Shown one piece after another: positions 12,767 through 56,328 of a stretch of 64,000 nucleotides of DNA (position 1 is its first letter; each line of letters starts with the position of its first letter). The stretch covers positions 8,267 to 72,266 of the forward strand of contig CAYITD010000005.1 in the NCBI GenBank assembly GCA_964366325.1. The letters are read 5' to 3'. Origin of the DNA: Candidatus Woesearchaeota archaeon (GTDB lineage Archaea > Nanobdellota > Nanobdellia > Pacearchaeales > GW2011-AR1). The position numbers were made by a program, and so were the translations under genes. The notes below the pieces were generated by a model, which worked only from the letters and a program-made list of their open reading frames with translations, was not told the origin of the DNA and ran no database searches.

Positions 12767-13207
12767 TTATAATCTTTCTAAGTATTCTTTTATTCTCTCG
12801 ATCGTCTGCGGGACAATAAAAGCCTCTACTTTATTTTTGAAAATTTCAGGTAGTGGGGCAAATTCTGACAAACGGTATTTATTTTCTTTTTTATCAACAA
12901 ACATTATGTCTCGCAATCTTTTAAGCTGTCTTCTTATATTTGACTCCGCTAATCCTTTATTGTCTAAAGAATTTTGTTTTCTTAATTCTTCTATTTTGTC
13001 TCTTATCTCAAAAGAAGAAAGCCAGACAGATTGTTTTCTAGAGTCTTCTAGAATAAGGAACAAATCCACTATTATGTCTCTTGAATCTCCTGGCTGCAGC
13101 AAACCAAGACTTAAACACACTTTCCTTACCAAATCTCTTTTCGAAGAATCATAAGGTTTTTCGTACCTTCTTAGAGTTATTTCCATTAAAGGAAGATCTT
13201 TCACCAT
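12767..13207 (-). CDS. predicted winged-helix DNA-binding protein
   Basis: 146 aa; helix-rich pattern ..SRDIIVDLFLIL.., RRQLKRLRDIMFVDKKENKYRLSEF resembles wing/recognition helix; weak call. Confidence 0.35.
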   Translation of the reverse strand: MVKDLPLMEITLRRYEKPYDSSKRDLVRKVCLSLGLLQPGDSRDIIVDLFLILEDSRKQSVWLSSFEIRDKIEELRKQNSLDNKGLAESNIRRQLKRLRDIMFVDKKENKYRLSEFAPLPEIFKNKVEAFIVPQTIERIKEYLERL

Positions 13208-13257
13208 TCGCTTTGGAGAACAGCAATTATTATAAATCTAATGTTTCTTTTTTCTCT
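13208..13257. promoter_or_regulatory. 50-nt bidirectional promoter spacer with central TATA-like box
   Basis: ATGs at 13207(-) and 13258(+) are 51 nt apart; ATTATTATAAAT at 13226-13237 is centred. Confidence 0.5.
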
Positions 13258-13614
13258 ATGAATTTGGTGGTTTTAATTGGTGAAGACAAAGAAAGTTATG
13301 GGCAGGTAACTGCTTTATTGAATAGAACAGATGCTGAAAAAATTGTTCTTTTGAAAAATAAAAAGGCTGATAGTTTTCCTCAGAATGAAAAATGTAAAAT
13401 AATTGAGATAGACTCTTCAAAAGACTTACTTTCCTTAAAGGATGATATGAAGGAAAAATTAAAGGAAGAAATATCTAAGGAGTTTGAAGTTTCTTTATCT
13501 ATAGCTTCTGGGACTGGGAAGGAACATATGGCTCTTATTTCTGCTTTACTTTCAATCCCCGTTGGTGTGAGGTTTGTGGTTTTCACAAAAAATGGAATAG
13601 AATTTACAAATTGA
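13258..13614 (+). CDS. small Rossmann-like protein with CARF-like G-T-G-K-x-x-M motif
   Basis: MNLVVLIGED (beta1), EKIVLL (beta2), VSLSIASGTGKEHMALISALL; internal ATG chosen because the upstream part of the ORF overlaps the divergent gene. Confidence 0.35.
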   Translation: MNLVVLIGEDKESYGQVTALLNRTDAEKIVLLKNKKADSFPQNEKCKIIEIDSSKDLLSLKDDMKEKLKEEISKEFEVSLSIASGTGKEHMALISALLSIPVGVRFVVFTKNGIEFTN

Positions 13615-15257: not shown

Positions 15258-15647
15258 TTAGTATACCCTCATTATAACTTTTTTACCTTCGATGTCCCAA
15301 TATTCTACTTGCTTCTCAACTTCTATCTGGTCTTTGAGTTCAGTCATAAATGGAACGTCAATTGTTTCATAATTCTCAAGATCCATTATTGAAGCTGCTG
15401 TTTCTGACACGCTTAAAACCTGAGCTCTTCTTTTCTCTACATTTGGAACGTCAAATCTTTCTCCACCTGGAACTGTGATTATTTTCTTTTTTCCGCTGAA
15501 AACTCCGGTTGCCTCAATTCTACATTTGCTGGCTCCGTGTTTTCCTGTCTTGCTTATATCGTTTGATCTAACCGAATACGGTTCTCCATCAGAGAGAATT
15601 ATTGTACCTGGTTTGGCCGACGTTGCATCGATTATTCTTAAAACCAT
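15258..15647 (-). CDS. eif5a: translation initiation factor 5A (aIF5A)
   Basis: Hypusine loop SKTGKHGASK; OB-fold C-domain. Confidence 0.92.
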   Translation of the reverse strand: MVLRIIDATSAKPGTIILSDGEPYSVRSNDISKTGKHGASKCRIEATGVFSGKKKIITVPGGERFDVPNVEKRRAQVLSVSETAASIMDLENYETIDVPFMTELKDQIEVEKQVEYWDIEGKKVIMRVY

Positions 15648-15697
15648 GTTTCTCCTTCACAAGAAATGTTTATAAAACTTACTAATTAACAGAATTC
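15648..15697. promoter_or_regulatory. 50-nt bidirectional promoter spacer with central TATA box
   Basis: ATGs at 15647(-) and 15698(+) are 51 nt apart; TTTATAAAA at 15669-15677 is centred. Confidence 0.55.
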
Positions 15698-16381
15698 ATG
15701 CAAATTGAGACCGCTAAGAAAAAAAATTTTATTGAAATTAAGTATACAGGCTATGCAAACGGTGAAGTTTTTGATTCTAATATTGAAGAAGATGTGAAAA
15801 AACTTCATGAAAATGCTAAAGCTGAAAAGAGCGTGATTGTTGTTGGAGAGGGAATGGTTGTTCCTGGACTTGATAAAAATCTTGAAGGAAAAGAAATAGG
15901 AAAAGAATATGAAATAATTGTGCCTTTCAAAGAAGGTTTTGGTGAAAGAAAAAGAGAGTTGATAAAAACTATTCCTTTAAGCGCTTTCAAAGGAAAAGAA
16001 GTTATGCCTAGAGTAGGTATGGTTCTTGCATTGGATCAATATTTAGCCAAGGTAATTGCGATTTCTGGCGCTAGAGTTGTTGCTGATTTAAATAACCCTT
16101 TGGCGGGAAAAGATCTTAAATATAAAATAAAAATAGTAAGAAAAGTTGAAGATGATAAAGAAAAGGCTGAAGCATATTTTAAGTTTTTTCTAGGAGTTTC
16201 TCCTGATACAGAGTCTAGGGAAAAAGAGATAGTTGTTAAGTTGCCTAAAAATCTTGAAAAGCTTATTGATTTGCACAAAATAAAATTTAAAGAATTGGTT
16301 GGTAAAGATCTGACTTTTGAAGAAAAAAAGGAAGAAAAATATAACCATGAACATGGGAAAGAACACGAACATAAACATTGA
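15698..16381 (+). CDS. FKBP-type peptidyl-prolyl isomerase (SlyD-like) with His-rich tail
   Basis: IEIKYTGYANGEVFDSN, insert-in-flap region, C-terminal HEHGKEHEHKH. Confidence 0.85.
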   Translation: MQIETAKKKNFIEIKYTGYANGEVFDSNIEEDVKKLHENAKAEKSVIVVGEGMVVPGLDKNLEGKEIGKEYEIIVPFKEGFGERKRELIKTIPLSAFKGKEVMPRVGMVLALDQYLAKVIAISGARVVADLNNPLAGKDLKYKIKIVRKVEDDKEKAEAYFKFFLGVSPDTESREKEIVVKLPKNLEKLIDLHKIKFKELVGKDLTFEEKKEEKYNHEHGKEHEHKH

Positions 16382-16396
16382 TCTTAATGCGATAAT

Positions 16397-16406
16397 GTTT
16401 ATAAAT
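16397..16406 (+). promoter_or_regulatory. TATA box of ftsZ
   Basis: GTTTATAAAT centred about 25 nt upstream of ATG 16427. Confidence 0.45.
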
Positions 16407-16426
16407 TGCTAAAACGTGGCTATTTA

Positions 16427-17518
16427 ATGCCTGTAACATATTACGAAAAAGAGGCTTCCAAATCCCAATCGATAGATGAAGAACTTGAATCTTTGTTGCA
16501 ACAACAATCTGCAAAAGTTAAAGTTATCGGATGTGGAGGAGGTGGAGGCAATTCTGTTTCAAGAATGAAAGAGATTGGTATAAAGGGATGTGAAATCATT
16601 GCCATAAATACTGATGCACAAGATCTTCTTTATACTAATGTTGATACTAAAATCTTAATTGGAAAAGAGCTAACTGGAGGTTTGGGAGCTGGAAGCAATC
16701 CAAGAATAGGAGAACAGGCGGCTAAGGAATCAGAGAAGGAAATTAAAGGAAAGATTGGAAATGCTGATTTGGTTTTTATCACCTGCGGTTTAGGTGGTGG
16801 GACAGGAACTGGTTCTGCCCCTGTTGTAGCTGAAATTGCAAAAAAGGCCGGAGCTTTGACTATAGGGGTTGTGACGCTTCCTTTTACTGTTGAAGGACAA
16901 AAAAGGATTGAGAACGCACAACATGGATTGGAGAAGTTGGCTTCTGTTGCTGATACTTTGATTGTAATTCCTAATGATAAACTTTTGGAAATAGCCCCTG
17001 AATTGCCCATCCATACTGCTTTCAAAGTTGCAGATGAAATTTTAACTAATAGCGTCAAAGGAATAACTGAATTAATAACTAAAGCTGGACTTGTTAATTT
17101 AGATTTTGCTGATGTTAAGGCTGTAATGCTTAATGGAGGAGTTTCATTAATAGGAATAGGTGAGTCTAACTCTCAGAATAGAGCACTGGAAGCTGTTGAA
17201 AGAGCAATAAACAATCCTTTGCTTGATGTTGATATATCTGGAGCGACTGGAGCTTTAGTTAATATCGTTGGTGGAAGTGATATGTCCTTAGATGAATATA
17301 AAAAAGTCATGGAAGTTATTGGAGGAAGAATTGCACCTGATGCGAAGATAATTTCTGGAGCGCAGATTTCTGCAGACATGGAGAAATCTATTAAGGTTTT
17401 ACTTATTGTTACGGGAGTAAAAAGTTCTCAAATCCTTGGTTCTACAGACTTTGCAAACAAGACTGATTCTTCTTTGGAAGATGAATTAGGTATTAAGTTT
17501 GTTAAGGAAGAAGAGTAG
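16427..17518 (+). CDS. ftsZ: cell division GTPase FtsZ
   Basis: GCGGGGGNSV, tubulin signature GLGGGTGTGSAPVVAEIAK; start set to ATG 16427. Confidence 0.95.
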   Translation: MPVTYYEKEASKSQSIDEELESLLQQQSAKVKVIGCGGGGGNSVSRMKEIGIKGCEIIAINTDAQDLLYTNVDTKILIGKELTGGLGAGSNPRIGEQAAKESEKEIKGKIGNADLVFITCGLGGGTGTGSAPVVAEIAKKAGALTIGVVTLPFTVEGQKRIENAQHGLEKLASVADTLIVIPNDKLLEIAPELPIHTAFKVADEILTNSVKGITELITKAGLVNLDFADVKAVMLNGGVSLIGIGESNSQNRALEAVERAINNPLLDVDISGATGALVNIVGGSDMSLDEYKKVMEVIGGRIAPDAKIISGAQISADMEKSIKVLLIVTGVKSSQILGSTDFANKTDSSLEDELGIKFVKEEE

Positions 17519-17691
17519 GCTTTAGTTAAAACGATGAAAAAAATCTGAAAAATTAATTATTTATTTCTTTCATATATTCTTGGTACTTTTCTCTTTCTAC
17601 TATATTTTTTGATGCTTCAATAGAATATATCAAAATTCCGCTGTATAATTTTCTTTCTTCTGGATTCTCAATAGCTCGATCTGAAAATAAT

Positions 17692-17886
17692 TTATAAAAA
17701 CCAACCATTTTCCTCTGATATTAAACTTTCAAGAGAATTATAACCTCTAAAAAAATCATGACCTTCAACACTTCTTGCAAAGCTTAATAACTCATCTGCT
17801 TTTTCTAAAACATCTTGAGTACTAACCCTTCCAAAATGTTCTCTCAATTCTTCAATAAGTCTTTCTTCCCCATCTTTTAAACTCAT
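17692..17886 (-). CDS. hypothetical small acidic protein
   Basis: 64-aa ORF sharing the palindromic TATA with secE. Confidence 0.35.
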   Translation of the reverse strand: MSLKDGEERLIEELREHFGRVSTQDVLEKADELLSFARSVEGHDFFRGYNSLESLISEENGWFL

Positions 17887-17936
17887 TTTAGGCTAAAGAA
17901 ACAAACTTTTATAAAACCTCCTTTTTTATCTAAGTA
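17887..17936. promoter_or_regulatory. 50-nt bidirectional promoter spacer with perfectly palindromic central TATA
   Basis: ATGs at 17886(-) and 17937(+) are 51 nt apart; TTTTATAAAA at 17907-17916 sits exactly at the midpoint. Confidence 0.55.
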
Positions 17937-18125
17937 ATGGAATATTTAATGAGATTCAAGTCTTTTGTATTGCAGTGTAAGAGAGTATGGCATATTTTGA
18001 AGAAACCTAGTGCTGAAGAGTTTAAAACTGTCTCGAAGGTTTCTGCTTTGGGTCTTCTTACGCTTGGTTTAATTGGTTTTGTTATAGCTGATATCGTCAA
18101 GTTTATATCTGGAATATTTTCTTAG
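17937..18125 (+). CDS. secE: protein translocase subunit SecE (Sec61 gamma)
   Basis: 62 aa, KRVWHILKKPSAEEF then a single C-terminal TM; follows ftsZ as in many archaea. Confidence 0.7.
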   Translation: MEYLMRFKSFVLQCKRVWHILKKPSAEEFKTVSKVSALGLLTLGLIGFVIADIVKFISGIFS

Positions 18126-18170: not shown

Positions 18171-18244
18171 GGGGCTATGGTCTAGCTTGGTTATGATCCG
18201 AGCTTTGGGAGCTCGTGACCCCGGTTCAAATCCGGGTAGCCCCA
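18171..18244 (+). tRNA. tRNA-Pro (UGG anticodon)
   Basis: GGGGCTA..TAGCCCC acceptor, anticodon arm CGAGC-TTTGGGA-GCTCG, T-arm CCGGTTCAAATCCGG. Confidence 0.9.
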
Positions 18245-18283
18245 TATAGAATAATTTAAAAAGCATATGAAATAGGTTTGTTT

Positions 18284-18511
18284 ATGGGAGCGAAGAAGAA
18301 AAAAATAAAGGCTGCTGGAAGATTTGGAGCAGGATATGGGAAAAATGTTAGGGATAGATTTAATGCTGTCGAGGCTCAACAAAGAAGACTTCAACCTTCT
18401 CCGTTTCACCCAACTGGGAAAGCAAAAAGACTCTCTTCTGGAATTTGGAAATGTATAAAGACGGGAAGAGTTTTTGCCGGCCATGCTTATTTCTTAGCGC
18501 CGAGAAAGTAA
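18284..18511 (+). CDS. rpl37ae: 50S ribosomal protein L37Ae (L43e), zinc-ribbon cysteines mostly lost
   Basis: AAGRFGAGYGKNVR, RLSSGIWKC..GRVFAGHAY match the L37Ae pattern; expected CxxC pairs replaced (SPFH, CIKT). Confidence 0.75.
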   Translation: MGAKKKKIKAAGRFGAGYGKNVRDRFNAVEAQQRRLQPSPFHPTGKAKRLSSGIWKCIKTGRVFAGHAYFLAPRK

Positions 18512-30634: not shown

Positions 30635-30940
30635 TTAAAATTTATTGAATCCAAATTTTTTCAGATCTATAGATTTTCCATTGATTTCTACTCCTTCTTC
30701 TTTTAGAAGTTTTATTTTATTATTTAATCCTGTGGCGAAGCCCCCTAATTTTCCGTTTGAGTTTATAACTCTATGACATGGAACTTGAGGAGCGTAAGGA
30801 TTTTTGTTCATTGCGTTTCCTACTGCTCTATAAGCTTTTGTGTTTAATGCTAAAGCCAGAGATTTATAGGTTGTAACTTTCCCTATCGGAACTTTTCTTA
30901 AGAGAGTGTAACAACGCTCGTTGAATGATTTTTTTGGCAT
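30635..30940 (-). CDS. ogt: methylated-DNA--protein-cysteine methyltransferase (single-domain Ogt/MGMT)
   Basis: Active-site VPCHRVI, helix-turn-helix TTYKSLA. Confidence 0.85.
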   Translation of the reverse strand: MPKKSFNERCYTLLRKVPIGKVTTYKSLALALNTKAYRAVGNAMNKNPYAPQVPCHRVINSNGKLGGFATGLNNKIKLLKEEGVEINGKSIDLKKFGFNKF

Positions 30941-30990
30941 ATTTTAATTATTACATAAATAGTTATAAACCTTACTTTATGAAAAGTTCA
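30941..30990. promoter_or_regulatory. 50-nt bidirectional promoter spacer with central TATA box
   Basis: ATGs at 30940(-) and 30991(+) are 51 nt apart; TTATAAA at 30963-30969 is centred. Confidence 0.5.
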
Positions 30991-31362
30991 ATGACGAGTC
31001 ATGTAGTTAGAGCAATTATTAGTTGTGGAAATGATATTCTTCTTGGAAAAAGGAGAGATTTACCAAGTGAATGGGACATTCCTGCAAGAAATGTGGTTAA
31101 AGGAGAGTCGTATGATGATGCTCTTAAGATATGTGTGAAGGAGCAAACAGGAATTGATATAACTATTGGCTCTTATCTTGGCGGTGGCAAGATTAATGGT
31201 GGTCGGGCTGCTAGATGGTATGAATGTTTTGCAAAGGCTAAGAATGGTACTCCCCATGGTGAATTAGAAGAAATAATTTGGGTCCCAAAGAATAAAGTTA
31301 TTGTACAATGTGGTGAAATGGTAACTTCTCTCTGGTCAAAATCAATTAGAGAGTATTTTTGA
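30991..31362 (+). CDS. NUDIX-like hydrolase (degenerate Nudix box)
   Basis: VKGESYDDALKICVKEQTGI resembles Gx5Ex7REuxEExGu with substitutions; start chosen by promoter geometry (alternative ATG 30979). Confidence 0.4.
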   Translation: MTSHVVRAIISCGNDILLGKRRDLPSEWDIPARNVVKGESYDDALKICVKEQTGIDITIGSYLGGGKINGGRAARWYECFAKAKNGTPHGELEEIIWVPKNKVIVQCGEMVTSLWSKSIREYF

Positions 31363-40437: not shown

Positions 40438-40624
40438 CATAGCCTCGCCAGCTCACGAGATTGCAATCTCGGATCCTCTAACATTTAACATGTTTGGAGT
40501 GATTCAAACCTTCCAGGTTCGAAGAGATAGCCTCGCCAGTCTGAAGAAATCTAACAATTAATTTCTTGGCACTGTCGATGCTAATTTTATCTCGTTTCAC
40601 TCGATAATAACATAGCCTCGCCAG
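40438..40624. repeat. three direct copies of the tRNA-Gln 3' end (ATAGCCTCGCCAG), about 85-89 nt apart
   Basis: Identical 13-mer at 40439-40451, 40527-40539 and 40612-40624 (the last is the acceptor/T-stem end of tRNA-Gln); perfect 16-nt palindrome CGAGATTGCAATCTCG inside the first spacer. Confidence 0.75.
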
Positions 40625-40712
40625 GATTCGAACCTGGGTCATGGGAGTTCTCTTACAGCACTAAAGCACATTAACCAGAGTCCCATATCCTAGACCGCTA
40701 GACGACAAGGCT
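40613..40712 (-). tRNA. tRNA-Gln (CUG anticodon) with 27-nt intron at 37/38
   Basis: A1-U72 acceptor AGCCTTG/CGAGGCT, anticodon stem TGGGA/TCCCA, loop CTCTGG^..^C; intron at 40648-40674; 4-bp helix CTCT/AGAG flanked by 3-nt bulges; T-arm CCAGGTTCGAATCCTGG. Confidence 0.8.
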
Positions 40713-40764: not shown

Positions 40765-42480
40765 TCAATCTTTCTCATGAATAATATCGTGATGTCCCTG
40801 TTTTCTTCTGGCTTTAAGTTCTTCAATATTCTTCAGTCCTTCACGGACGAAGTTTTCCTTGGCAAAGAGGTTTTCTTCTATTAAATTTGAAGTATAAGTT
40901 CCTCCAAGGAAATGTGGAAGAACAACATAAGTTGCTCCTGAGCTATAAAGCTTCAAAGCATCTTCAATTCCATGAGATACTGCGATTATTATTGCTTCTT
41001 TGTTTACTGCGTGAATCTTTTTTACTAATAGTATATTTGTTTCAAAATCTGGAATAGTAGAAACTATCATCTTTGCATTTCTTAATGGCAAGTCTTGCAA
41101 CAATTCAATATCTTCTGCATCCCCATATTGACAATTTATTCCTGATTTTGCCAAGTTCAAAATAATTTCTGGATTGTTATCAACAATTAAGAATCTTTTT
41201 TTTATATTTTTGAAAGATTTAACTAAACTGTAACCTATCCTATTATATCCGAAAAGGAGTATGTCATAATCTTCCCCCCTATAGAACTTACCTTCATCCT
41301 TCTTTAATCCCTTGCGTTCAAAACAATTAAGATAGGGGGCGAAAAAATGATATAGTTTATTTCCATATGGAACAAAATAAGCTGAACCTCCCATGGTTAT
41401 TAGTCCTATCAAAGTCATTATAGAAAGTATCTCTGGAGAAAGATGATTTAATTTTATACCTAGAGTTATGAGTATAAATGAAAATTCACTTATCTGAGAG
41501 ACAGTCAGACCTGCAAGAAAACCGTTTCTTTTTGTGTATCCTAAACGACCCATTAAAAACATAACAATTATTGGATTTCCTATAAATATCAAGAGCGAGA
41601 AGATTATTATTGGAATGTGCATTCCAGATAGTGAAGAAAAAGAAAGCTGAGAACCTAGAAGTATGAAAAACAACAAAAGGAAGAAGTCACGAAGGGGCTT
41701 CATTCTAGAGCCTATTTCATATCTAAACGGGGAAATAGACAAAGAAATTCCTGCCAACAAAGCACCTATTTCCATTGAGAAACCTATGTAGTCAAAGAAA
41801 CTACCTAGTGCAAATGCCCAGCCTATTGAGAACAGCAACAAAAGCTCTTGATTCTTCGCAACCTTCCTTGTTATTCGCGGTAATATATAAAAACTTATCA
41901 AAAACAAAATTATAATGGATCCTGCGCCTATACTAAACTTTTCAAATGCGAAAGAAGAAAAACTTCCTGAGTTGGAAAGCGAAGAAACAAACATTAAAAT
42001 CAAAATTGCAATTATATCTTGTACTATTAAGAAGCCTATTGAGATTTTACCATAAAGAGTAGAGATATCTCCCTTATCTGATAACAATTTCATGATAATT
42101 ATTGTTGAACTAAATGAAATTGCTAAAGCTATGTAGGCTGAAGTTATCCAGTTGAAATGTAAAAACAGTCCTATAAAAAAACCTAAAATAAAAGTGAAAA
42201 TTATCTGACCTACACCTGTAATTAAGGAGACTAAGCCTACTTCTTTAATGACTTTCGGGTCTAAATTTAAACCAACCATGAACATTAAAACTGCGACACC
42301 CATTTGTGCAAAAGTAGATATTTGATTTACGTCCCCTAATAAGTTAAGAAAGTGTGGACTTACTATTACTCCAGCCAATATGTAAGCGACAATCAATGGC
42401 TGTTTTAATAAACGAATTATTGAAGAAACTAAAAATGCAACTATGATTATCAAACTCAAACTGATAAATGTTGATTCCAT
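40765..42480 (-). CDS. Kef-type (CPA2) cation:proton antiporter with C-terminal RCK/TrkA-N domain
   Basis: About 12 TM N-terminal part; ILLFGYNRIGYSLV Rossmann-like start of the RCK domain. Confidence 0.85.
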   Translation of the reverse strand: MESTFISLSLIIIVAFLVSSIIRLLKQPLIVAYILAGVIVSPHFLNLLGDVNQISTFAQMGVAVLMFMVGLNLDPKVIKEVGLVSLITGVGQIIFTFILGFFIGLFLHFNWITSAYIALAISFSSTIIIMKLLSDKGDISTLYGKISIGFLIVQDIIAILILMFVSSLSNSGSFSSFAFEKFSIGAGSIIILFLISFYILPRITRKVAKNQELLLLFSIGWAFALGSFFDYIGFSMEIGALLAGISLSISPFRYEIGSRMKPLRDFFLLLFFILLGSQLSFSSLSGMHIPIIIFSLLIFIGNPIIVMFLMGRLGYTKRNGFLAGLTVSQISEFSFILITLGIKLNHLSPEILSIMTLIGLITMGGSAYFVPYGNKLYHFFAPYLNCFERKGLKKDEGKFYRGEDYDILLFGYNRIGYSLVKSFKNIKKRFLIVDNNPEIILNLAKSGINCQYGDAEDIELLQDLPLRNAKMIVSTIPDFETNILLVKKIHAVNKEAIIIAVSHGIEDALKLYSSGATYVVLPHFLGGTYTSNLIEENLFAKENFVREGLKNIEELKARRKQGHHDIIHEKD

Positions 42481-42596
42481 TCTTCACCTCTTTTTAATAC
42501 AAGAAAGAAGCATATTTAAAGTTTAACGATAAATCCTTTGTTGAGACAAATAGAAGCGTTTTTATATTTAATCATCTCTAGATTTATTGAGGAAAG

Positions 42597-42911
42597 ATGA
42601 ATTGGATAATAGTTGCGGGTATCGTAGTTGTATTGTATGTGTTATTTATGTTTAAAATGAACAACTTTAGAACTAAAGTTGCTTTTATATTTATATTTCT
42701 CGGGGTTTGTTTTGTTTTGATGACAGCTTATTATGTTCTTTCTGATAATAAACCTGATTTGTCAAATATAGATGGATGGACACAAAGCGGTAAAGTGTAC
42801 TTTTCATGGCTTACTAATGCTTTTAGCAGCGCTTTTAAAGTAACTGGCGATGCAATAAAAGAAATTGGAGGAAATGTAGCGAAAAACTCTACAAATATTA
42901 CGAGAAAATGA
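42597..42911 (+). CDS. hypothetical membrane protein
   Basis: 104 aa, two TM segments; ATGA overlap with the next ORF. Confidence 0.4.
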   Translation: MNWIIVAGIVVVLYVLFMFKMNNFRTKVAFIFIFLGVCFVLMTAYYVLSDNKPDLSNIDGWTQSGKVYFSWLTNAFSSAFKVTGDAIKEIGGNVAKNSTNITRK

Positions 42912-48629: not shown

Positions 48630-49259
48630 TTATTTTTTTCTTTTATGTCTTAGATATTCTACTAAAGGAGGTATAAAAGAAGCAATTATAATTAAGAAAA
48701 TGAATAGAGTTAATCGCTCTTCCACAAAAGCAAAGCCTCCAAAGAAAAAACCAGAGAAAACAAAAAGAGCGACCCAAGCAAAACCACTTATAATATTGAA
48801 GCCTAAAAATCTTGTATAATTCATTTTTCCAACACCTGCTACGAATGGGGCAAAGGTCCTTATTATTGGGATAAAACGAGCAAATATGATTGTTTTTCCT
48901 CCGTGTGTTTTATAAAATTGCTTTGTTTTTTCTAAGTATTCCTGTTTGAAAAACCTACTTTTTGAAAATACTCTCTCGCCGAAAAAGCTGCCAAACCAAT
49001 AATTAAGAGTATCTCCTAATATTGCTGCTAAAGAAAGAATAAGAAAAATAAAGAAAACGTCGAGTAAACCTTGAGCTGCAAAGGCTCCTGCAACAAAAAG
49101 TAGGGAGTCTCCAGGAAGAAAAGGTGTGAAAACAAAACCAGTTTCTAGGAAAATTATTACAAATAAAATTAGATATGTCAAAGAACCGAAATTTGTTATT
49201 ATTTCGCTAAGATATTTGTCAAAGTGTAAAATAAATTCTATAAAAAAGCTTAAACCCAT
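48630..49259 (-). CDS. dedA: DedA family membrane protein
   Basis: FLETGFVFTPFLPGDSLLFVAGAFA, KTHGGKTIIFARFIPIIRTFAPFVAG. Confidence 0.85.
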   Translation of the reverse strand: MGLSFFIEFILHFDKYLSEIITNFGSLTYLILFVIIFLETGFVFTPFLPGDSLLFVAGAFAAQGLLDVFFIFLILSLAAILGDTLNYWFGSFFGERVFSKSRFFKQEYLEKTKQFYKTHGGKTIIFARFIPIIRTFAPFVAGVGKMNYTRFLGFNIISGFAWVALFVFSGFFFGGFAFVEERLTLFIFLIIIASFIPPLVEYLRHKRKK

Positions 49260-49309
49260 TTAGATAGTTTTTCAATCATGTTTAAATATTTATTTATACT
49301 GGCAAAGTG
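49260..49309. promoter_or_regulatory. 50-nt bidirectional promoter spacer with central TATA box
   Basis: ATGs at 49259(-) and 49310(+) are 51 nt apart; TTTAAATA at 49281-49288 sits exactly at the midpoint. Confidence 0.55.
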
Positions 49310-50086
49310 ATGAAAAGACAGCCCATAGTTGCTTTAGCTCAAATAAGATATTTTGAAAGCGAAAATAATAATCTTGAAAAGATAAAAGAATATATTAGAC
49401 TGGCTAAAAAGAAAAGAGCAGATATTATTTGTTTCCCTGAATCTTGTGTGCATAAAACAAAGGTTCTTGATTTTGATAATGAAATGGTTAATGAAATAAA
49501 AAAGGAATGCTGCAAGAATAAAATATGGTGCATTATAAACGATTCAATGAAAATTAAAGGCGAGAAATACAATGCTTCAATAATTATTAATAGAGAAGGA
49601 AAAATTGTTGGAGAATACAGAAAGATGAATTTATATGGCGATGGAGAAGATTTTCGTTCTGGTAAAAAAGTTAAAGTTTTTAAAACGGATTTCGCTAAAA
49701 TAGGAATAGCTATATGTTGGGATCTAGCTTTTCCTGAGCTTTTTAGAAAAATGAAAAAATTAGGAACCCAGATTGTTTTCTGTCCTTCTCAATGGAAATA
49801 TGAATTATGTGCCCATGAAGGAAATAAATATGAAAATAAACATAAGGATGGGGAAAGAGCCCTTCTTGAATCTTTAATAAGATCAAGAGCATTTGAAAAC
49901 TTGTTCTATGTAGCTTTAATAAATCCAATACTCAAAGACAAAGATCAAGTAAATTACTCTGCAATTGTTTCTCCTCATAAAATACTTGCACAAATAAATG
50001 AAAAAGAAGGGCTTATCACAGCAAAAATAGACCTTAGTAAGATAGAGAAGCTACATAAGATTTACAATCCTAAGAAAGTTATTTAG
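49310..50086 (+). CDS. carbon-nitrogen hydrolase (nitrilase superfamily)
   Basis: E-K-C triad context: ICFPES, YRKMNLY, IGIAICWDLAFPE. Confidence 0.8.
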   Translation: MKRQPIVALAQIRYFESENNNLEKIKEYIRLAKKKRADIICFPESCVHKTKVLDFDNEMVNEIKKECCKNKIWCIINDSMKIKGEKYNASIIINREGKIVGEYRKMNLYGDGEDFRSGKKVKVFKTDFAKIGIAICWDLAFPELFRKMKKLGTQIVFCPSQWKYELCAHEGNKYENKHKDGERALLESLIRSRAFENLFYVALINPILKDKDQVNYSAIVSPHKILAQINEKEGLITAKIDLSKIEKLHKIYNPKKVI

Positions 50087-51010: not shown

Positions 51011-51856
51011 TTATATCTTTGATTCCAGAAGTTTGAAAACATGTTCTACGATAACTTCTCTTTGATTTTCAAAGAAATCTAAACCTGGCTGAGCATTTAT
51101 TTCTAAAACAAACCAACTATCTCCTTTTTTCAATAAATCTATCCCACAGACATTTATTCCAGAAAACTTAATTAATTTTTTTATTATTGGTTTTAAATTT
51201 TTATCAACTTTGAATTTCCCGATGTTATGTGCGTAAACTCCTGTCGCTTTCCAGCTATTACTTTTTTTTATCGCGGTCTGCACTATTTTTTGTCCAACTG
51301 TTGTAACTCTGTAACTTGATGAAGGAATAAACTCCTGCGCGATTATTGGAAACCTTTCTGAGCTTTTTTTCCAAAATTTATTTATTATTTTTATTGCTTC
51401 TTTTGGATTATCTGCTTTTTCAACATAATTGCCTGTTGTACCGTAGACTCTTTTAACAATAACTGGCCAATAATTGAAATCGATCAGCTCTTTCTTTATC
51501 AAGTTTAAGTCTTCCGATAAAAGAATAGTTTGAGGAACAGGAAGCTTATGCTCTCTACATTTTAAATAAAACATCCACTTATCTTCCGTATAATAAAATG
51601 TCTTTGATGAATCTATGACTTTTTTTCCTAGCTCTTCAATTGTTTTCACAATCTCCAAAGCAAAATCTTCAGCGCTATTATTGTAAAATATATCACAGTT
51701 TTTTACTTTTTCTTCTAATTCTTTTTCTTCCAAACCCTGAAGAAGATTTATCATTATTAGATTAACTTTTCTTTTTTTGGCTATCTTGATAAAAGCCTTT
51801 TCATCTTTAGTTAACTTTTTATCAGAATATATATATCCGATAGTCTTATTTTTCAT
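51011..51856 (-). CDS. ATP-grasp ligase (RimK-like)
   Basis: WPVIVKRVYGTTGNYV, IAQEFIP, FVLEINAQPGL. Confidence 0.7.
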   Translation of the reverse strand: MKNKTIGYIYSDKKLTKDEKAFIKIAKKRKVNLIMINLLQGLEEKELEEKVKNCDIFYNNSAEDFALEIVKTIEELGKKVIDSSKTFYYTEDKWMFYLKCREHKLPVPQTILLSEDLNLIKKELIDFNYWPVIVKRVYGTTGNYVEKADNPKEAIKIINKFWKKSSERFPIIAQEFIPSSSYRVTTVGQKIVQTAIKKSNSWKATGVYAHNIGKFKVDKNLKPIIKKLIKFSGINVCGIDLLKKGDSWFVLEINAQPGLDFFENQREVIVEHVFKLLESKI

Positions 51857-51906
51857 AATATGAAATAGAAAGATATATATTTAAGTTTAGTTCTTTTTGT
51901 AATCAG
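51857..51906. promoter_or_regulatory. 50-nt bidirectional promoter spacer with central TATA-like box
   Basis: ATGs at 51856(-) and 51907(+) are 51 nt apart; ATATATATTTA lies around 51873-51883. Confidence 0.5.
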
Positions 51907-52599
51907 ATGAAAAAGCCTTATATAAGGAAGTTTAGAGATGTTGGAGCATTTAGTGTTTGGATAGTTGATGGGAAATATGTGAGAAGCTATATAGATGAAG
52001 AGTTCACAAACTTCGGTCAACACTTTAGATTCAAATTCATTCCTAAGAATGAATTTTGGATTGACAAAGAGAATTCTGGAGATGAAAGCAGATTTTTTAT
52101 AGATCACCTGCTCTTAGAGAATAGTTTAATGAAATCTGGAGTAAAATATAAAAAAGCGATAGAGACTGCTGACCTTAAAGAAAAAAAAGAGAGATCTAAA
52201 AGTTCATTTTACAAAAGAAATGTTAAACTTGAAAGAAAACACGATAAGAAATTAATAAAGAGAATTCATAAAAGCTTGTTGAGAAGATATAGTAATGAAC
52301 GAATTAAAGTTTGGGTTGTAAATGGGGAATTAGTAAGAGATTTGTTTTTTATTGATTTTACAGAGGGAGGACATGATAAAGTTTACAAATTTGTTCCTAT
52401 GAATGAAATTTGGATCGATGACGATCTTTCTAAGGAAGAATTAAAGTTTGTTTTGCTACATGAATTACATGAAAGGAACCTTATGTCTAAAGGTGAAAAA
52501 TATGAAAAGGCGCATTATTCCGCCAGTGAAATTGAATATCATTGCAGACATCATCCAAAAGAAATTGATAAAAAATTGAAAGAAGAGATGTTGAAGTAA
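51907..52599 (+). CDS. hypothetical protein made of two homologous halves, the second with an HExxH motif
   Basis: VWIVDGKYVRSYIDEEFTNFGQH..FIPKNEFWID..HLLLENSLMKSGVKYKKA versus VWVVNGELVRDLFFIDFTEGGHD..FVPMNEIWID..LLHELHERNLMSKGEKYEKA. Confidence 0.45.
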   Translation: MKKPYIRKFRDVGAFSVWIVDGKYVRSYIDEEFTNFGQHFRFKFIPKNEFWIDKENSGDESRFFIDHLLLENSLMKSGVKYKKAIETADLKEKKERSKSSFYKRNVKLERKHDKKLIKRIHKSLLRRYSNERIKVWVVNGELVRDLFFIDFTEGGHDKVYKFVPMNEIWIDDDLSKEELKFVLLHELHERNLMSKGEKYEKAHYSASEIEYHCRHHPKEIDKKLKEEMLK

Positions 52600-55947: not shown

Positions 55948-56256
55948 TTAGAATAAATCAACAAAGGTTCTGCAGAAACGTTCTTTTGCTATTTTTAGAC
56001 CTTTAGTGCCTTCAGCAGTTAAAGAATAATAAATTGATTTTCCTTCTTTCTTTTCTTTTATTAAACCGGCTTCTTTTAATGATTTTAAAGCAGGGTAAAC
56101 GGTTCCAGGGCTTGGTTTCTCTCCTTTTCTCTTTTCAATCTCTTTCGCAAGGTCTTGCCCAGACATTTCTTTTTTTGAAACAAGGAATAAAATAAGGAAA
56201 GAGAGAAAACCGCGCATATCACAGCAATAACTATCTGGACATTTTTCTTTTGACAT
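55948..56256 (-). CDS. padR: PadR-family transcriptional regulator
   Basis: LSFLILFLVSKKEMSGQDLAKEIE..PSPGTVYPALKSLKEAGLI..YYSLTAEG. Confidence 0.8.
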   Translation of the reverse strand: MSKEKCPDSYCCDMRGFLSFLILFLVSKKEMSGQDLAKEIEKRKGEKPSPGTVYPALKSLKEAGLIKEKKEGKSIYYSLTAEGTKGLKIAKERFCRTFVDLF

Positions 56257-56328
56257 TTTATTATTGGGTGACCGATATATTTAAATACTTGTATTGTTCT
56301 TATATCGCATGACCGATACTAATATGAA

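What the first reader, a model, noticed from the sequence alone, without database searches (positions are those of the whole stretch)
17887..17936. Six divergent gene pairs share an identical 51-nt ATG-to-ATG spacing around a single central TATA box
Seen: divergent start codons lie exactly 51 nt apart at 13207/13258, 15647/15698, 17886/17937, 30940/30991, 49259/49310 and 51856/51907. Each 50-nt spacer has an A/T box at its midpoint: the perfect palindrome TTTTATAAAA at 17907-17916, TTTATAAAA at 15669-15677, TTTAAATA at 49281-49288, TTATAAA at 30963-30969. Unidirectional genes show the same TATA-centre-to-ATG distance of about 25-26 nt (ftsZ 16427, peptidase 18662, ORF 44564, ORF 50259). Established: archaeal TATA boxes sit about 26 nt upstream of the TSS, and leaderless mRNAs start at the ATG. 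Inference: one TBP site is used in both orientations to fire two leaderless transcripts. This rigid, quantised promoter module recurs six times in 64 kb. It also resolves start-codon choices (30991, 49310, 13258) and couples gene pairs such as aIF5A/FKBP, orphan/secE, ogt/Nudix-like, dedA/nitrilase and ATP-grasp/HExxH protein.
Basis: partly seen in the sequence, partly recalled or inferred. Interest (0 to 1): 0.75.

Follow-up and report, generated by a model that had tools for sequence, protein, structure and literature searches.

The report
Shared two-way TATA promoters, 51-nt spacing
In this DPANN archaeal genome fragment, six back-to-back gene pairs have start codons exactly 51 nt apart around one palindromic TATA box with a TFB-recognition element on each side. 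This is a conserved, compact form of the already published archaeal bidirectional promoter, here apparently driving two leaderless mRNAs.

Summary
All six CAT-N50-ATG pairs are at the stated coordinates. A count that ignores start-codon choice gives 6 pairs at offset 51, against 0-2 at every other offset from 10 to 150 (Poisson P about 3e-7).

The window comes from a groundwater DPANN archaeon (Pace-/Woesearchaeota-like). In this lineage the 8-bp TATA box sits at -29..-22 from the ATG, with BRE adenines at -32/-33 and no Shine-Dalgarno motif, which implies leaderless mRNAs. If two such promoters share one box in mirror image, the ATGs must lie exactly 51 nt apart.

Shared promoters carry BRE-like signals on both sides. 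T at -19 is 83%, against 34% in one-way promoters. Their TATA boxes are also more often perfect palindromes (50% against 11%).

Two orthologous pairs keep the 51-52 nt spacing across dozens of genomes while the flanking spacer sequence diverges. Pairs that are not at about 51 are at 67 or more.

It is not new. Shared-TATA, BRE-TATA-BRE bidirectional promoters with start sites about 50-52 bp apart are published for Pyrococcus, Thermococcus and Haloferax. I rate this a new member of a known kind, of moderate interest, and useful for correcting start-codon calls in DPANN genomes.

The parts
13208..13257 (.). 50-nt shared promoter spacer 1. The TATA 8-mer ATTATAAA is at 13229-13236, with BRE-like blocks on both sides.
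   Evidence: The central TTATAAA is invariant and the length is conserved in 31 of 66 orthologous loci at d=51.
12767..13207 (-). Conserved DPANN protein of 146 aa with no Pfam family. It is the left gene of pair 1.
   Evidence: M1 aligns in 66 of 66 loci. A public gene call gives 146 aa.
13258..13614 (+). Conserved DPANN protein of 118 aa. It is the right gene of pair 1, and its start at 13258 is not the longest ORF start.
   Evidence: M1 aligns in 66 of 70 loci. A public gene call gives 118 aa.
15648..15697 (.). Shared promoter spacer 2. The palindromic TATA box TTTATAAA is at 15669-15676.
   Evidence: In 45 loci where FKBP is the divergent neighbour of aIF5A, d=51 occurs 19 times and d=52 four times, with no values from 59 to 84.
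15258..15647 (-). aIF5A, the left gene of pair 2.
   Evidence: Pfam IF5A-like_N and eIF-5a.
15698..16381 (+). FKBP-type peptidyl-prolyl isomerase, the right gene of pair 2.
   Evidence: Pfam FKBP_C and FKBP26_IF. A public gene call gives 227 aa.
17887..17936 (.). Shared promoter spacer 3. The palindromic TATA box TTTATAAA is at 17908-17915, within TTTTATAAAA at 17907-17916.
17692..17886 (-). Orphan ORF of 64 aa, the left gene of pair 3. It is specific to this lineage.
   Evidence: No tblastn hit in 80 related loci. In relatives the end of FtsZ abuts the SecE TATA box. It is called as a gene in public assemblies.
17937..18125 (+). SecE / Sec61-gamma (62 aa), the right gene of pair 3.
   Evidence: TIGR00327 scores 64.8 bits against a cutoff of 36.2. 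51 of 60 orthologues have an ATG whose TATA box starts at -30 to -28, although the N-terminal length varies.
30941..30990 (.). Shared promoter spacer 4. The TATA box GTTATAAA is at 30962-30969.
   Evidence: A close relative (L168) has the same box and the same Ogt distance, with the NUDIX ATG one codon further away, giving d=54.
30635..30940 (-). Ogt-like methylguanine DNA methyltransferase (DNA_binding_1 domain), the left gene of pair 4.
   Evidence: Pfam PF01035, E = 1.8e-29.
30991..31362 (+). NUDIX-like hydrolase, the right gene of pair 4. The start is debated: 30991 from the promoter model and a homologue, 30979 from a public gene call, 30925 for the longest ORF.
49260..49309 (.). Shared promoter spacer 5. 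The TATA box TTTAAATA is at 49281-49288.
   Evidence: The closest relative, L081, keeps d=51 with the same box.
48630..49259 (-). DedA/VTT-domain membrane protein, the left gene of pair 5.
   Evidence: Pfam VTT_dom. A public gene call gives 209 aa.
49310..50086 (+). Carbon-nitrogen hydrolase (nitrilase superfamily), the right gene of pair 5. The start is the ATG at 49310, not the GTG at 49307.
   Evidence: Pfam CN_hydrolase. In L081 the preceding codon is TAT. A public gene call gives 258 aa.
51857..51906 (.). Shared promoter spacer 6. The TATA box TATTTAAG (reverse CTTAAATA) is at 51878-51885.
   Evidence: The closest relative, L170, keeps d=51.
51011..51856 (-). RimK-like ATP-grasp protein, the left gene of pair 6.
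   Evidence: Pfam RimK and ATP-grasp_3. A public gene call gives 281 aa.
51907..52599 (+). Protein of 230 aa with no family assigned, containing an HELHE motif. It is the right gene of pair 6.
   Evidence: No hit in Pfam or NCBIfam. A public gene call gives 230 aa.

Best explanation
Each 50-nt spacer is a minimal bidirectional archaeal core promoter, with the layout BRE - palindromic TATA box - inverted BRE.

Shown from sequence:
- In this DPANN lineage the 8-bp TATA box lies at -29..-22 from the start codon.
- The BRE adenines lie at -32/-33.
- There is no Shine-Dalgarno motif.

Inferred: transcription starts at or within a few nt of the A of the ATG, so the mRNAs are leaderless.

Because the box is a near-palindrome, the same 8 bp can occupy -29..-22 for a gene on each strand. 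That geometry fixes the two ATGs exactly 51 nt apart.

Also inferred: TBP binds the single box, and TFB reads whichever flanking BRE it engages, setting the direction of the pre-initiation complex. The two orientations are mutually exclusive at any moment, so the relative BRE strengths would divide initiation between the two genes.

Selection on this geometry would explain two observations. Orthologous pairs keep the spacer length while its sequence drifts. Pairs are found either at about 51 nt (one shared box) or at 67-85 nt or more (two boxes).
For: - The six pairs are exact.
- There is a unique peak at d=51 in the window (P = 3e-7), in 80 syntenic loci (15 pair families against a mean of 3.3), and in an unbiased set of 88 loci (8 against 2 or fewer).
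- Anchored on 487 promoters, 91 have a divergent ORF of at least 80 aa at exactly d=51, 4 at d=50, 9 at d=52, and 3 or fewer at other offsets.
- TTTAWA starts at -29 in 19-21% of first-ATG ORFs in the window and the syntenic loci, and 12% in the second locus set.
- BRE is mirrored only in shared promoters: T at -19 is 83% against 34%. The 12 half-sites in the window have a mean BRE score of about 3.1. Forward promoters average 2.9, and the reverse side of one-way promoters averages -1.9.
- TATA boxes are perfect 8-mer palindromes in 50% of shared promoters and 11% of one-way promoters.
- SD-like motifs occur in 5% of genes with TATA at -29 and in 22% of other genes.
- Orthologue conservation: for pair 1, d=51 in 31 of 66 loci, d=50 or 52 in 9, none from 57 to 66, with the central TTATAAA invariant and the ATG-proximal 12 nt unconserved. 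For aIF5A/FKBP, d=51-52 in 23 of 45 loci, none from 59 to 84, even though the FKBP N-terminal length varies.
- When the orthologous pair is separated, 12 of 21 carry two TATA boxes of their own.
- Published precedent for the mechanism exists, including in vitro two-way transcription from one TATA box (PMC6640164; 10.1101/2020.01.31.928960). The median BRE distance of 33 bp from the start site in T. kodakarensis matches -32/-33 here.
Against: - No transcript 5' ends, TBP/TFB binding data or expression data exist for this uncultivated organism. Start-site position and two-way firing are inferred.
- Two half-sites (49259-L and 51856-R) have the TATA box in a register shifted by 2 nt and score poorly on the strict PWM, although this -27 register is a minor class genome-wide.
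- One left gene (17886) is an orphan 64-aa ORF whose coding status is unproven.
- The NUDIX start (30991) is not the public gene call, and its close relative has d=54.
- In a broad DPANN sample the module is much rarer, at roughly 4% of promoters, than in this window. It is therefore one option among several, not a rule.
Confidence: 0.85

Rival explanations
1. The shared box is a passive by-product of genome compaction. Only one direction is a real promoter. The other gene is transcribed from elsewhere, or the reverse transcript is noise of the kind proposed for P. furiosus antisense RNAs.
For: Grünberger et al. interpret many two-way events as non-functional antisense RNAs. One left partner is an orphan ORF. 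The FtsZ promoter also has a symmetric TATA box facing the 3' end of FKBP, with only a dubious 62-aa ORF at d=49.
Against: Both flanks carry forward-grade BREs. Eleven of the twelve partners are conserved or family-assigned proteins. No alternative TATA box fits between the ATGs in a 50-nt spacer. The exact spacing is conserved in orthologues over 50-80% protein identity, which noise would not maintain.
Confidence: 0.08
2. The pattern is a chance or annotation artefact. An AT-rich genome has many ATG/CAT codons and TATA-like strings, and the reader picked start codons to obtain 51.
For: Three of the six '+' starts are not the longest ORF start. Public gene calls differ for SecE and NUDIX. Conserved internal ATGs can create false peaks, such as the d=62 peak inside FtsZ.
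Against: Start-agnostic counts still give a unique peak at 51. Four pairs are reproduced by an independent gene caller. Orthologue N-termini align at M1. Internal-ATG controls show no TATA signal.
Confidence: 0.02
3. The fixed 51-nt spacing is set by something other than TBP/TFB geometry, for example a symmetric repressor or chromatin-protein site spanning the spacer, or two partly overlapping but distinct TATA boxes.
For: The pair-1 spacers show conserved flanks (ACAACAAT.A / TCTAAT) beyond the TATA box. These could be a regulator site, and the 146-aa partner might be a DNA-binding protein, though this was not tested. Variants at d=50 and d=52 exist.
Against: The conserved flanks coincide with the BRE positions defined from 164 unrelated one-way promoter families. 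The spacing follows arithmetically from the one-way TATA-to-ATG distance. Unrelated gene pairs share only the BRE-TATA-BRE pattern.
Confidence: 0.05

Closest known systems
Archaeal bidirectional promoters with a shared TATA box (BRE-TATA-BRE): P. furiosus (Grünberger et al. 2019, PMC6640164); T. kodakarensis and H. volcanii (Warman et al., bioRxiv 10.1101/2020.01.31.928960)
   Same: There is a single, near-symmetric TATA box midway between two divergent start points, with a BRE on each side in inverted orientation. Start points are about 49-52 bp apart, against 51 here. The explanation is symmetric TBP binding with TFB/BRE setting the direction.
   Different: The published cases were defined from mapped start sites, and in P. 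furiosus the analysis deliberately focused on the antisense or non-coding partners of head-to-tail genes. Here both products are protein-coding and apparently leaderless, so the start codons themselves are locked 51 nt apart. The arrangement is conserved across many DPANN genomes. No start-site data exist here.
Leaderless-type archaeal gene starts (GeneMarkS-2 'group D', promoter box about 26 nt upstream of the start codon; PMC6028130)
   Same: A promoter box lies at a fixed distance of about 26 nt (box centre) from the start codon of the first gene in an operon. An SD-type RBS is found at other genes.
   Different: That work describes one-way starts and does not cover DPANN MAGs of this kind. 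It does not describe the mirror-image pairing.
Haloarchaeal gvp PA/PD divergent promoters (PMC2241852)
   Same: These are closely spaced, oppositely oriented archaeal promoters in a short intergenic region (abstract listed).
   Different: According to the abstract, these are two divergent promoters separated by 35 nt with activator (GvpE) sites upstream of the BRE. Here there is one shared TATA box. I read only the abstract.
Bacterial bidirectional promoters with overlapping -10 elements and start sites 18 bp apart (Warman et al.)
   Same: The same principle applies: symmetry of the key core-promoter element gives divergent initiation at a quantised distance.
   Different: The machinery differs (sigma70 -10 hexamer against TBP/TFB), as does the spacing (18 against 51).

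Membership tests
Archaeal bidirectional (shared-TATA) core promoter | A single TATA box at the midpoint between the two divergent start points, about 25-26 nt from each. | tested here: met
The central TTATAAA is invariant in 32 orthologous spacers.
Archaeal bidirectional (shared-TATA) core promoter | A BRE on both sides of the TATA box, in inverted orientation. | tested here: met
   In family-weighted profiles, A at -32 is 91% and the mirrored T at -19 is 83% in shared promoters, against 34% in one-way promoters. All 12 half-sites in the window score in the forward-BRE range.
Archaeal bidirectional (shared-TATA) core promoter | A symmetric or palindromic TATA sequence. | tested here: met
   Perfect 8-mer palindromes make up 50% of shared promoters and 11% of one-way promoters. 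For 6-mers the figures are 79% and 29%.
Archaeal bidirectional (shared-TATA) core promoter | Divergent primary transcription start sites about 49-52 bp apart. | not testable with these tools
   No RNA data are available. The start sites are inferred from ATG positions and the leaderless-type architecture. The published values are 49, about 50 and 52 bp.
Archaeal bidirectional (shared-TATA) core promoter | Transcription in both directions dependent on the one TBP site. | not testable with these tools
   This needs in vitro transcription or mutagenesis.
Leaderless archaeal mRNAs (group D gene starts) | A promoter box at a fixed distance of about 26 nt upstream of the start codon. | tested here: met
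   TTTAWA starts at -29 in 21% of first-ATG ORFs in the window, 19% in set 1 and 12% in set 2, against 1% or fewer at nearly all other positions (a minor second register at -27: 4-10%) and about 0% at internal ATGs.
Leaderless archaeal mRNAs (group D gene starts) | No Shine-Dalgarno motif upstream of these starts, with SD present at other genes. | tested here: met
   SD-like 4-mers within -16..-4 occur in 5.4% against 21.9%, with a positional peak at -14..-9 only in the set lacking the TATA box.
Leaderless archaeal mRNAs (group D gene starts) | The mRNA 5' end lies at, or within about 5 nt of, the start codon. | not testable with these tools
   No 5'-end data are available. A weak pyrimidine preference at -1 (64% Y) is consistent with an initiator at the A of the ATG.

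The most novel reading that the evidence does not exclude
In streamlined DPANN genomes the 51-nt BRE-TATA-BRE cassette may be a selected unit of gene organisation, not a by-product. It would act as a divergent-gene equivalent of an operon, preserved with single-nucleotide precision across order-level divergence.

Leaderless translation needs only a 5'-terminal AUG. The mirror start site of any symmetric TATA box would therefore be a ready-made expression slot that can capture or give rise to new genes. The lineage-specific orphan ORF at 17692-17886, sitting exactly 51 nt from the ancient SecE start, would be an example.

Mutually exclusive pre-initiation complex orientation would then couple the two genes' expression levels and noise.
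Probability: 0.2. Interest if true: 0.6.

Novelty: new member of a known kind. Interest (0 to 1): 0.4.

Why it matters
- It extends the shared-TATA bidirectional promoter, so far shown from start-site maps in Thermococcales and Haloferax, to uncultivated DPANN archaea.
- When both genes are leaderless, the promoter geometry becomes a hard, conserved constraint on genome sequence: ATG-to-ATG is 51, or else at least about 67.
- In practice, the rule 'TATA 8-mer at -29..-22' gives a simple way to correct start codons in DPANN MAGs. Public gene calls for SecE and the NUDIX gene appear to be wrong here.
- The rule can also be used to predict co-expressed divergent gene pairs such as aIF5A/FKBP.
- The pairs offer natural test cases for how TFB/BRE strength divides initiation between the two orientations of one TBP site.

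Tried and rejected
- I first guessed Thaumarchaeota from the GC content. This was rejected because the aIF5A relatives are all DPANN MAGs.
- The extrapolated-M1 method failed for FKBP because its N-terminus varies. I replaced it with explicit ATG rules.
- Requiring in-frame stops inside the spacer was too strict and removed true pairs.
- The second-highest peak in set 1, at d=62, turned out to be conserved internal ATGs inside FtsZ coding sequence, not a promoter class.
- I tested whether CAT at the mirror position is enriched or depleted when no long ORF follows it. It was neither: 7 short ORFs at d=51 against about 4 background. This gives no support for pervasive mirror micro-ORFs.
- Conservation searches for the NUDIX gene in the genome collection found nothing. 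The nitrilase search found only one locus. The Ogt loci never have the NUDIX neighbour.
- The left ORF at d=51 from SecE in L004 is only 25 aa and unrelated to the orphan.
- Literature searches found no description of DPANN promoters, and none of 51-nt ATG-to-ATG quantisation. H. volcanii and T. kodakarensis transcriptome papers do not discuss bidirectional promoters.
- A Rfam scan found only four tRNAs and no structured RNA in the spacers.

Full report
**Observation.**
All six claimed pairs are present as written: CAT, 50 nt, ATG, with the A of the plus-strand ATG exactly 51 nt from the A of the minus-strand ATG. The quoted A/T boxes are at the quoted coordinates, and their centres fall within 0.5 nt of the spacer midpoints. 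The four one-way examples (ftsZ 16427, peptidase 18662, 44564, 50259) have TTTAWAWA at -29..-22, or -30..-23 for 50259.

**Test against chance.**
To avoid any bias from start-codon choice, I counted every CAT/ATG pair at every offset in which both codons open ORFs of at least 60 aa.
- Offset 51 has 6 pairs. All other offsets from 10 to 150 have 0-2.
- With lambda = 0.26, P(>=6) = 3e-7, or 5e-5 after correction for 141 bins.

**Organism and source.**
The window has 33% GC. Its aIF5A finds only DPANN MAGs (Pacearchaeota, Woesearchaeota, 'Nanoarchaeota'), with a best identity of 79%. Identical proteins occur on Hainich groundwater (H43, 0.1 µm fraction) metagenome contigs.

**Gene identities.**
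The partner of the ATP-grasp gene and both genes of pair 1 have no family assigned. The left gene of pair 3 is an orphan.

**Start codons.**
An independent public gene caller reproduces both starts of four pairs: 13207/13258, 15647/15698, 49259/49310 and 51856/51907.
- Start 13258: M1 aligns in 66 of 70 orthologous loci.
- Start 49310: the closest relative has TAT-ATG, so the GTG at 49307 is not conserved.
- SecE: the public call is 17949. However, 51 of 60 orthologues have an ATG whose TATA box starts at -30 to -28, even though their N-terminal lengths vary. The closest ones begin MELTAKLRSF or MDLTSKLKSF, like MEYLMRFKSF here.
- NUDIX: the public call is 30979. The only homologue (86% identity) starts MNHIVRAV, one codon from 30991, and the upstream ATG is a GTG there. 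The 22-aa extension from 30925 reads like translated AT-rich spacer.

**What sets the number 51.**
Across the window and 80 related loci, TTTAWA starts at -29 relative to the A of the ATG in about 20% of all first-ATG ORFs of at least 100 aa. It does so in 1% or fewer at nearly all other positions (a second register at -27 holds 4-10%), and almost never before internal ATGs. A second, independent locus set shows the same pattern.

The family-weighted one-way promoter profile (164 families) has these features:
- non-T at -36 and R at -35;
- A at -33 (75%) and A at -32 (88%);
- two free positions;
- TTTAWAWA at -29..-22.

The BRE position matches the median of 33 bp from the start site reported for T. 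kodakarensis. Genes with this box lack SD-like motifs (5.4%). Genes without it show an SD peak at -14..-9 (21.9%). This is the 'group D' leaderless architecture of GeneMarkS-2. If one 8-bp box occupies -29..-22 for a gene on each strand, then b-29 = a+22, so b-a = 51.

**Evidence that the box is used in both directions.**
- In one-way promoters the mirror positions of the BRE are at background: T at -19 is 34% and at -18 is 38%. In promoters with CAT at -53..-51 (24 protein families) the mirrored BRE is present: T at -19 is 83%, at -18 62%, Y at -16 87%, T at -15 67% and never A.
- All 12 half-promoters in the window have BRE scores in the forward range. Their mean is about 3.1. The forward mean is 2.9, and the mean for the reverse side of one-way promoters is -1.9.
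- Shared boxes are perfect 8-mer palindromes in 50% of families, against 11% for one-way promoters.

**Conservation.**
- For the 146-aa/118-aa pair, with both M1 residues aligned in 66 genomes at 50-82% protein identity, d=51 occurs 31 times, d=50 four times and d=52 five times. Single cases occur at 48, 49, 54 and 56. None fall from 57 to 66, and the rest are 67 or more.
- In the d=51 spacers the central TTATAAA is invariant, the BRE-position flanks are semi-conserved, and the roughly 12 nt next to each ATG are unconserved in sequence but fixed in length.
- Where the pair is separated, 12 of 21 loci show a separate TATA box at -29 for each gene.
- For aIF5A/FKBP (45 loci with FKBP as the neighbour), d=51 occurs 19 times and d=52 four times. 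None fall from 59 to 84, and 20 are at 85 or more, although the FKBP N-terminus varies by up to 9 residues.
- The closest relative MAG keeps d=51 for pairs 1, 5 and 6.
- Pair 4 is at d=54 in its only relative.
- Pair 3 is specific to this lineage. In relatives the FtsZ stop codon abuts the SecE TATA box. Here two orphan ORFs have been inserted, the first starting exactly at the mirror position.

**Generality.**
- Family-collapsed counts in set 1 plus the window give 15 pair families at d=51, against a mean of 3.3 and a maximum of 8.
- In loci chosen for unrelated reasons (Ogt and ATP-grasp neighbourhoods; 88 loci, 1.33 Mb), anchored on 181 promoters, d=51 has 8 divergent ORFs of at least 80 aa. 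Every other d from 30 to 66 has 2 or fewer, and a broad hump starts at about 70.
- Raw start-agnostic counts in set 2 are weaker: 9 against 3.3, P = 0.007, and 7 of the 9 have a central TATA box.
- The module is therefore general in these DPANN lineages, but it accounts for only about 4% of promoters there. In the window it accounts for roughly 12 of about 40.

**Comparison with known systems.**
The mechanism is published.
- Grünberger et al. 2019 describe BRE-TATA-BRE promoters in P. furiosus with antisense start sites about 50 bp upstream, and show in vitro that one TATA element gives two transcripts 49 bp apart.
- Warman et al. report divergent start sites predominantly 52 bp apart around a shared TTATAAA in T. 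kodakarensis, and similar results in H. volcanii.

I found no paper describing this in DPANN, and none describing the resulting 51-nt start-codon quantisation for leaderless coding pairs.

**Verdict.**
- This is a new member of a known kind.
- Interest is moderate. The result is what the known mechanism predicts, though unusually exact and strongly conserved, and it is useful for annotation.
- The main open points are the actual 5' ends, whether both directions fire, and whether the orphan ORF is a real gene.

Noticed in passing
window 56256-56309: This may be a seventh shared-TATA pair. The 102-aa minus-strand gene starts at 56256, and a 54-aa plus-strand ORF starts at 56309 (d=53), around TATTTAAATA. 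A direct repeat GACCGATA flanks the box.
   Followed up: no
window 16378-16427: The ftsZ promoter box (GTTTATAAAT) is symmetric. A CAT at d=49 opens a 62-aa ORF antisense to the 3' end of FKBP. The ORF is probably spurious, but the site could produce antisense RNA.
   Followed up: no
window 17556-17886: Two orphan minus-strand ORFs (64 aa and 51 aa) lie between ftsZ and secE in this lineage only. In about 30 relatives the ftsZ stop codon directly abuts the secE TATA box.
   Followed up: partly
window 17937/17949 and 30979/30991: Public gene calls for SecE (58 aa) and NUDIX (127 aa) do not use the ATG that lies 29 nt from the start of the TATA box. Orthologue and homologue evidence favours the promoter-consistent starts. 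DPANN MAG annotations may carry systematic start errors of this kind.
   Followed up: partly
window 42468-42600: The divergent pair 42480(-)/42597(+), d=117, has short SD-containing leaders (GAGGTG and GAGG) and TATA boxes further upstream. Leadered, SD-led first genes therefore coexist with leaderless ones.
   Followed up: no
window 40613-40712 (-) and 18171-18244 (+): One tRNA hit spans 100 nt and may contain an intron. Another tRNA overlaps the 97-aa ORF at 18191-18484(-), which may therefore be spurious.
   Followed up: no
window 12767-13614 and L001-L080: The 146-aa/118-aa divergent pair has no Pfam family but is conserved as neighbours in 66 of 80 DPANN genomes. It appears to be a core DPANN gene pair of unknown function.
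   Followed up: partly
loci L010-L079 (inside ftsZ): A false peak at d=62 in the raw histogram comes from conserved internal ATGs on both strands of ftsZ coding sequence. Raw counts over orthologous loci need family collapsing.
   Followed up: yes
window and loci, position +4: G at +4 (ATGG) occurs in about 60% of genes with TTTAWA at -29, against 40% of all first-ATG ORFs. This may be a sequence preference at leaderless starts.
   Followed up: no
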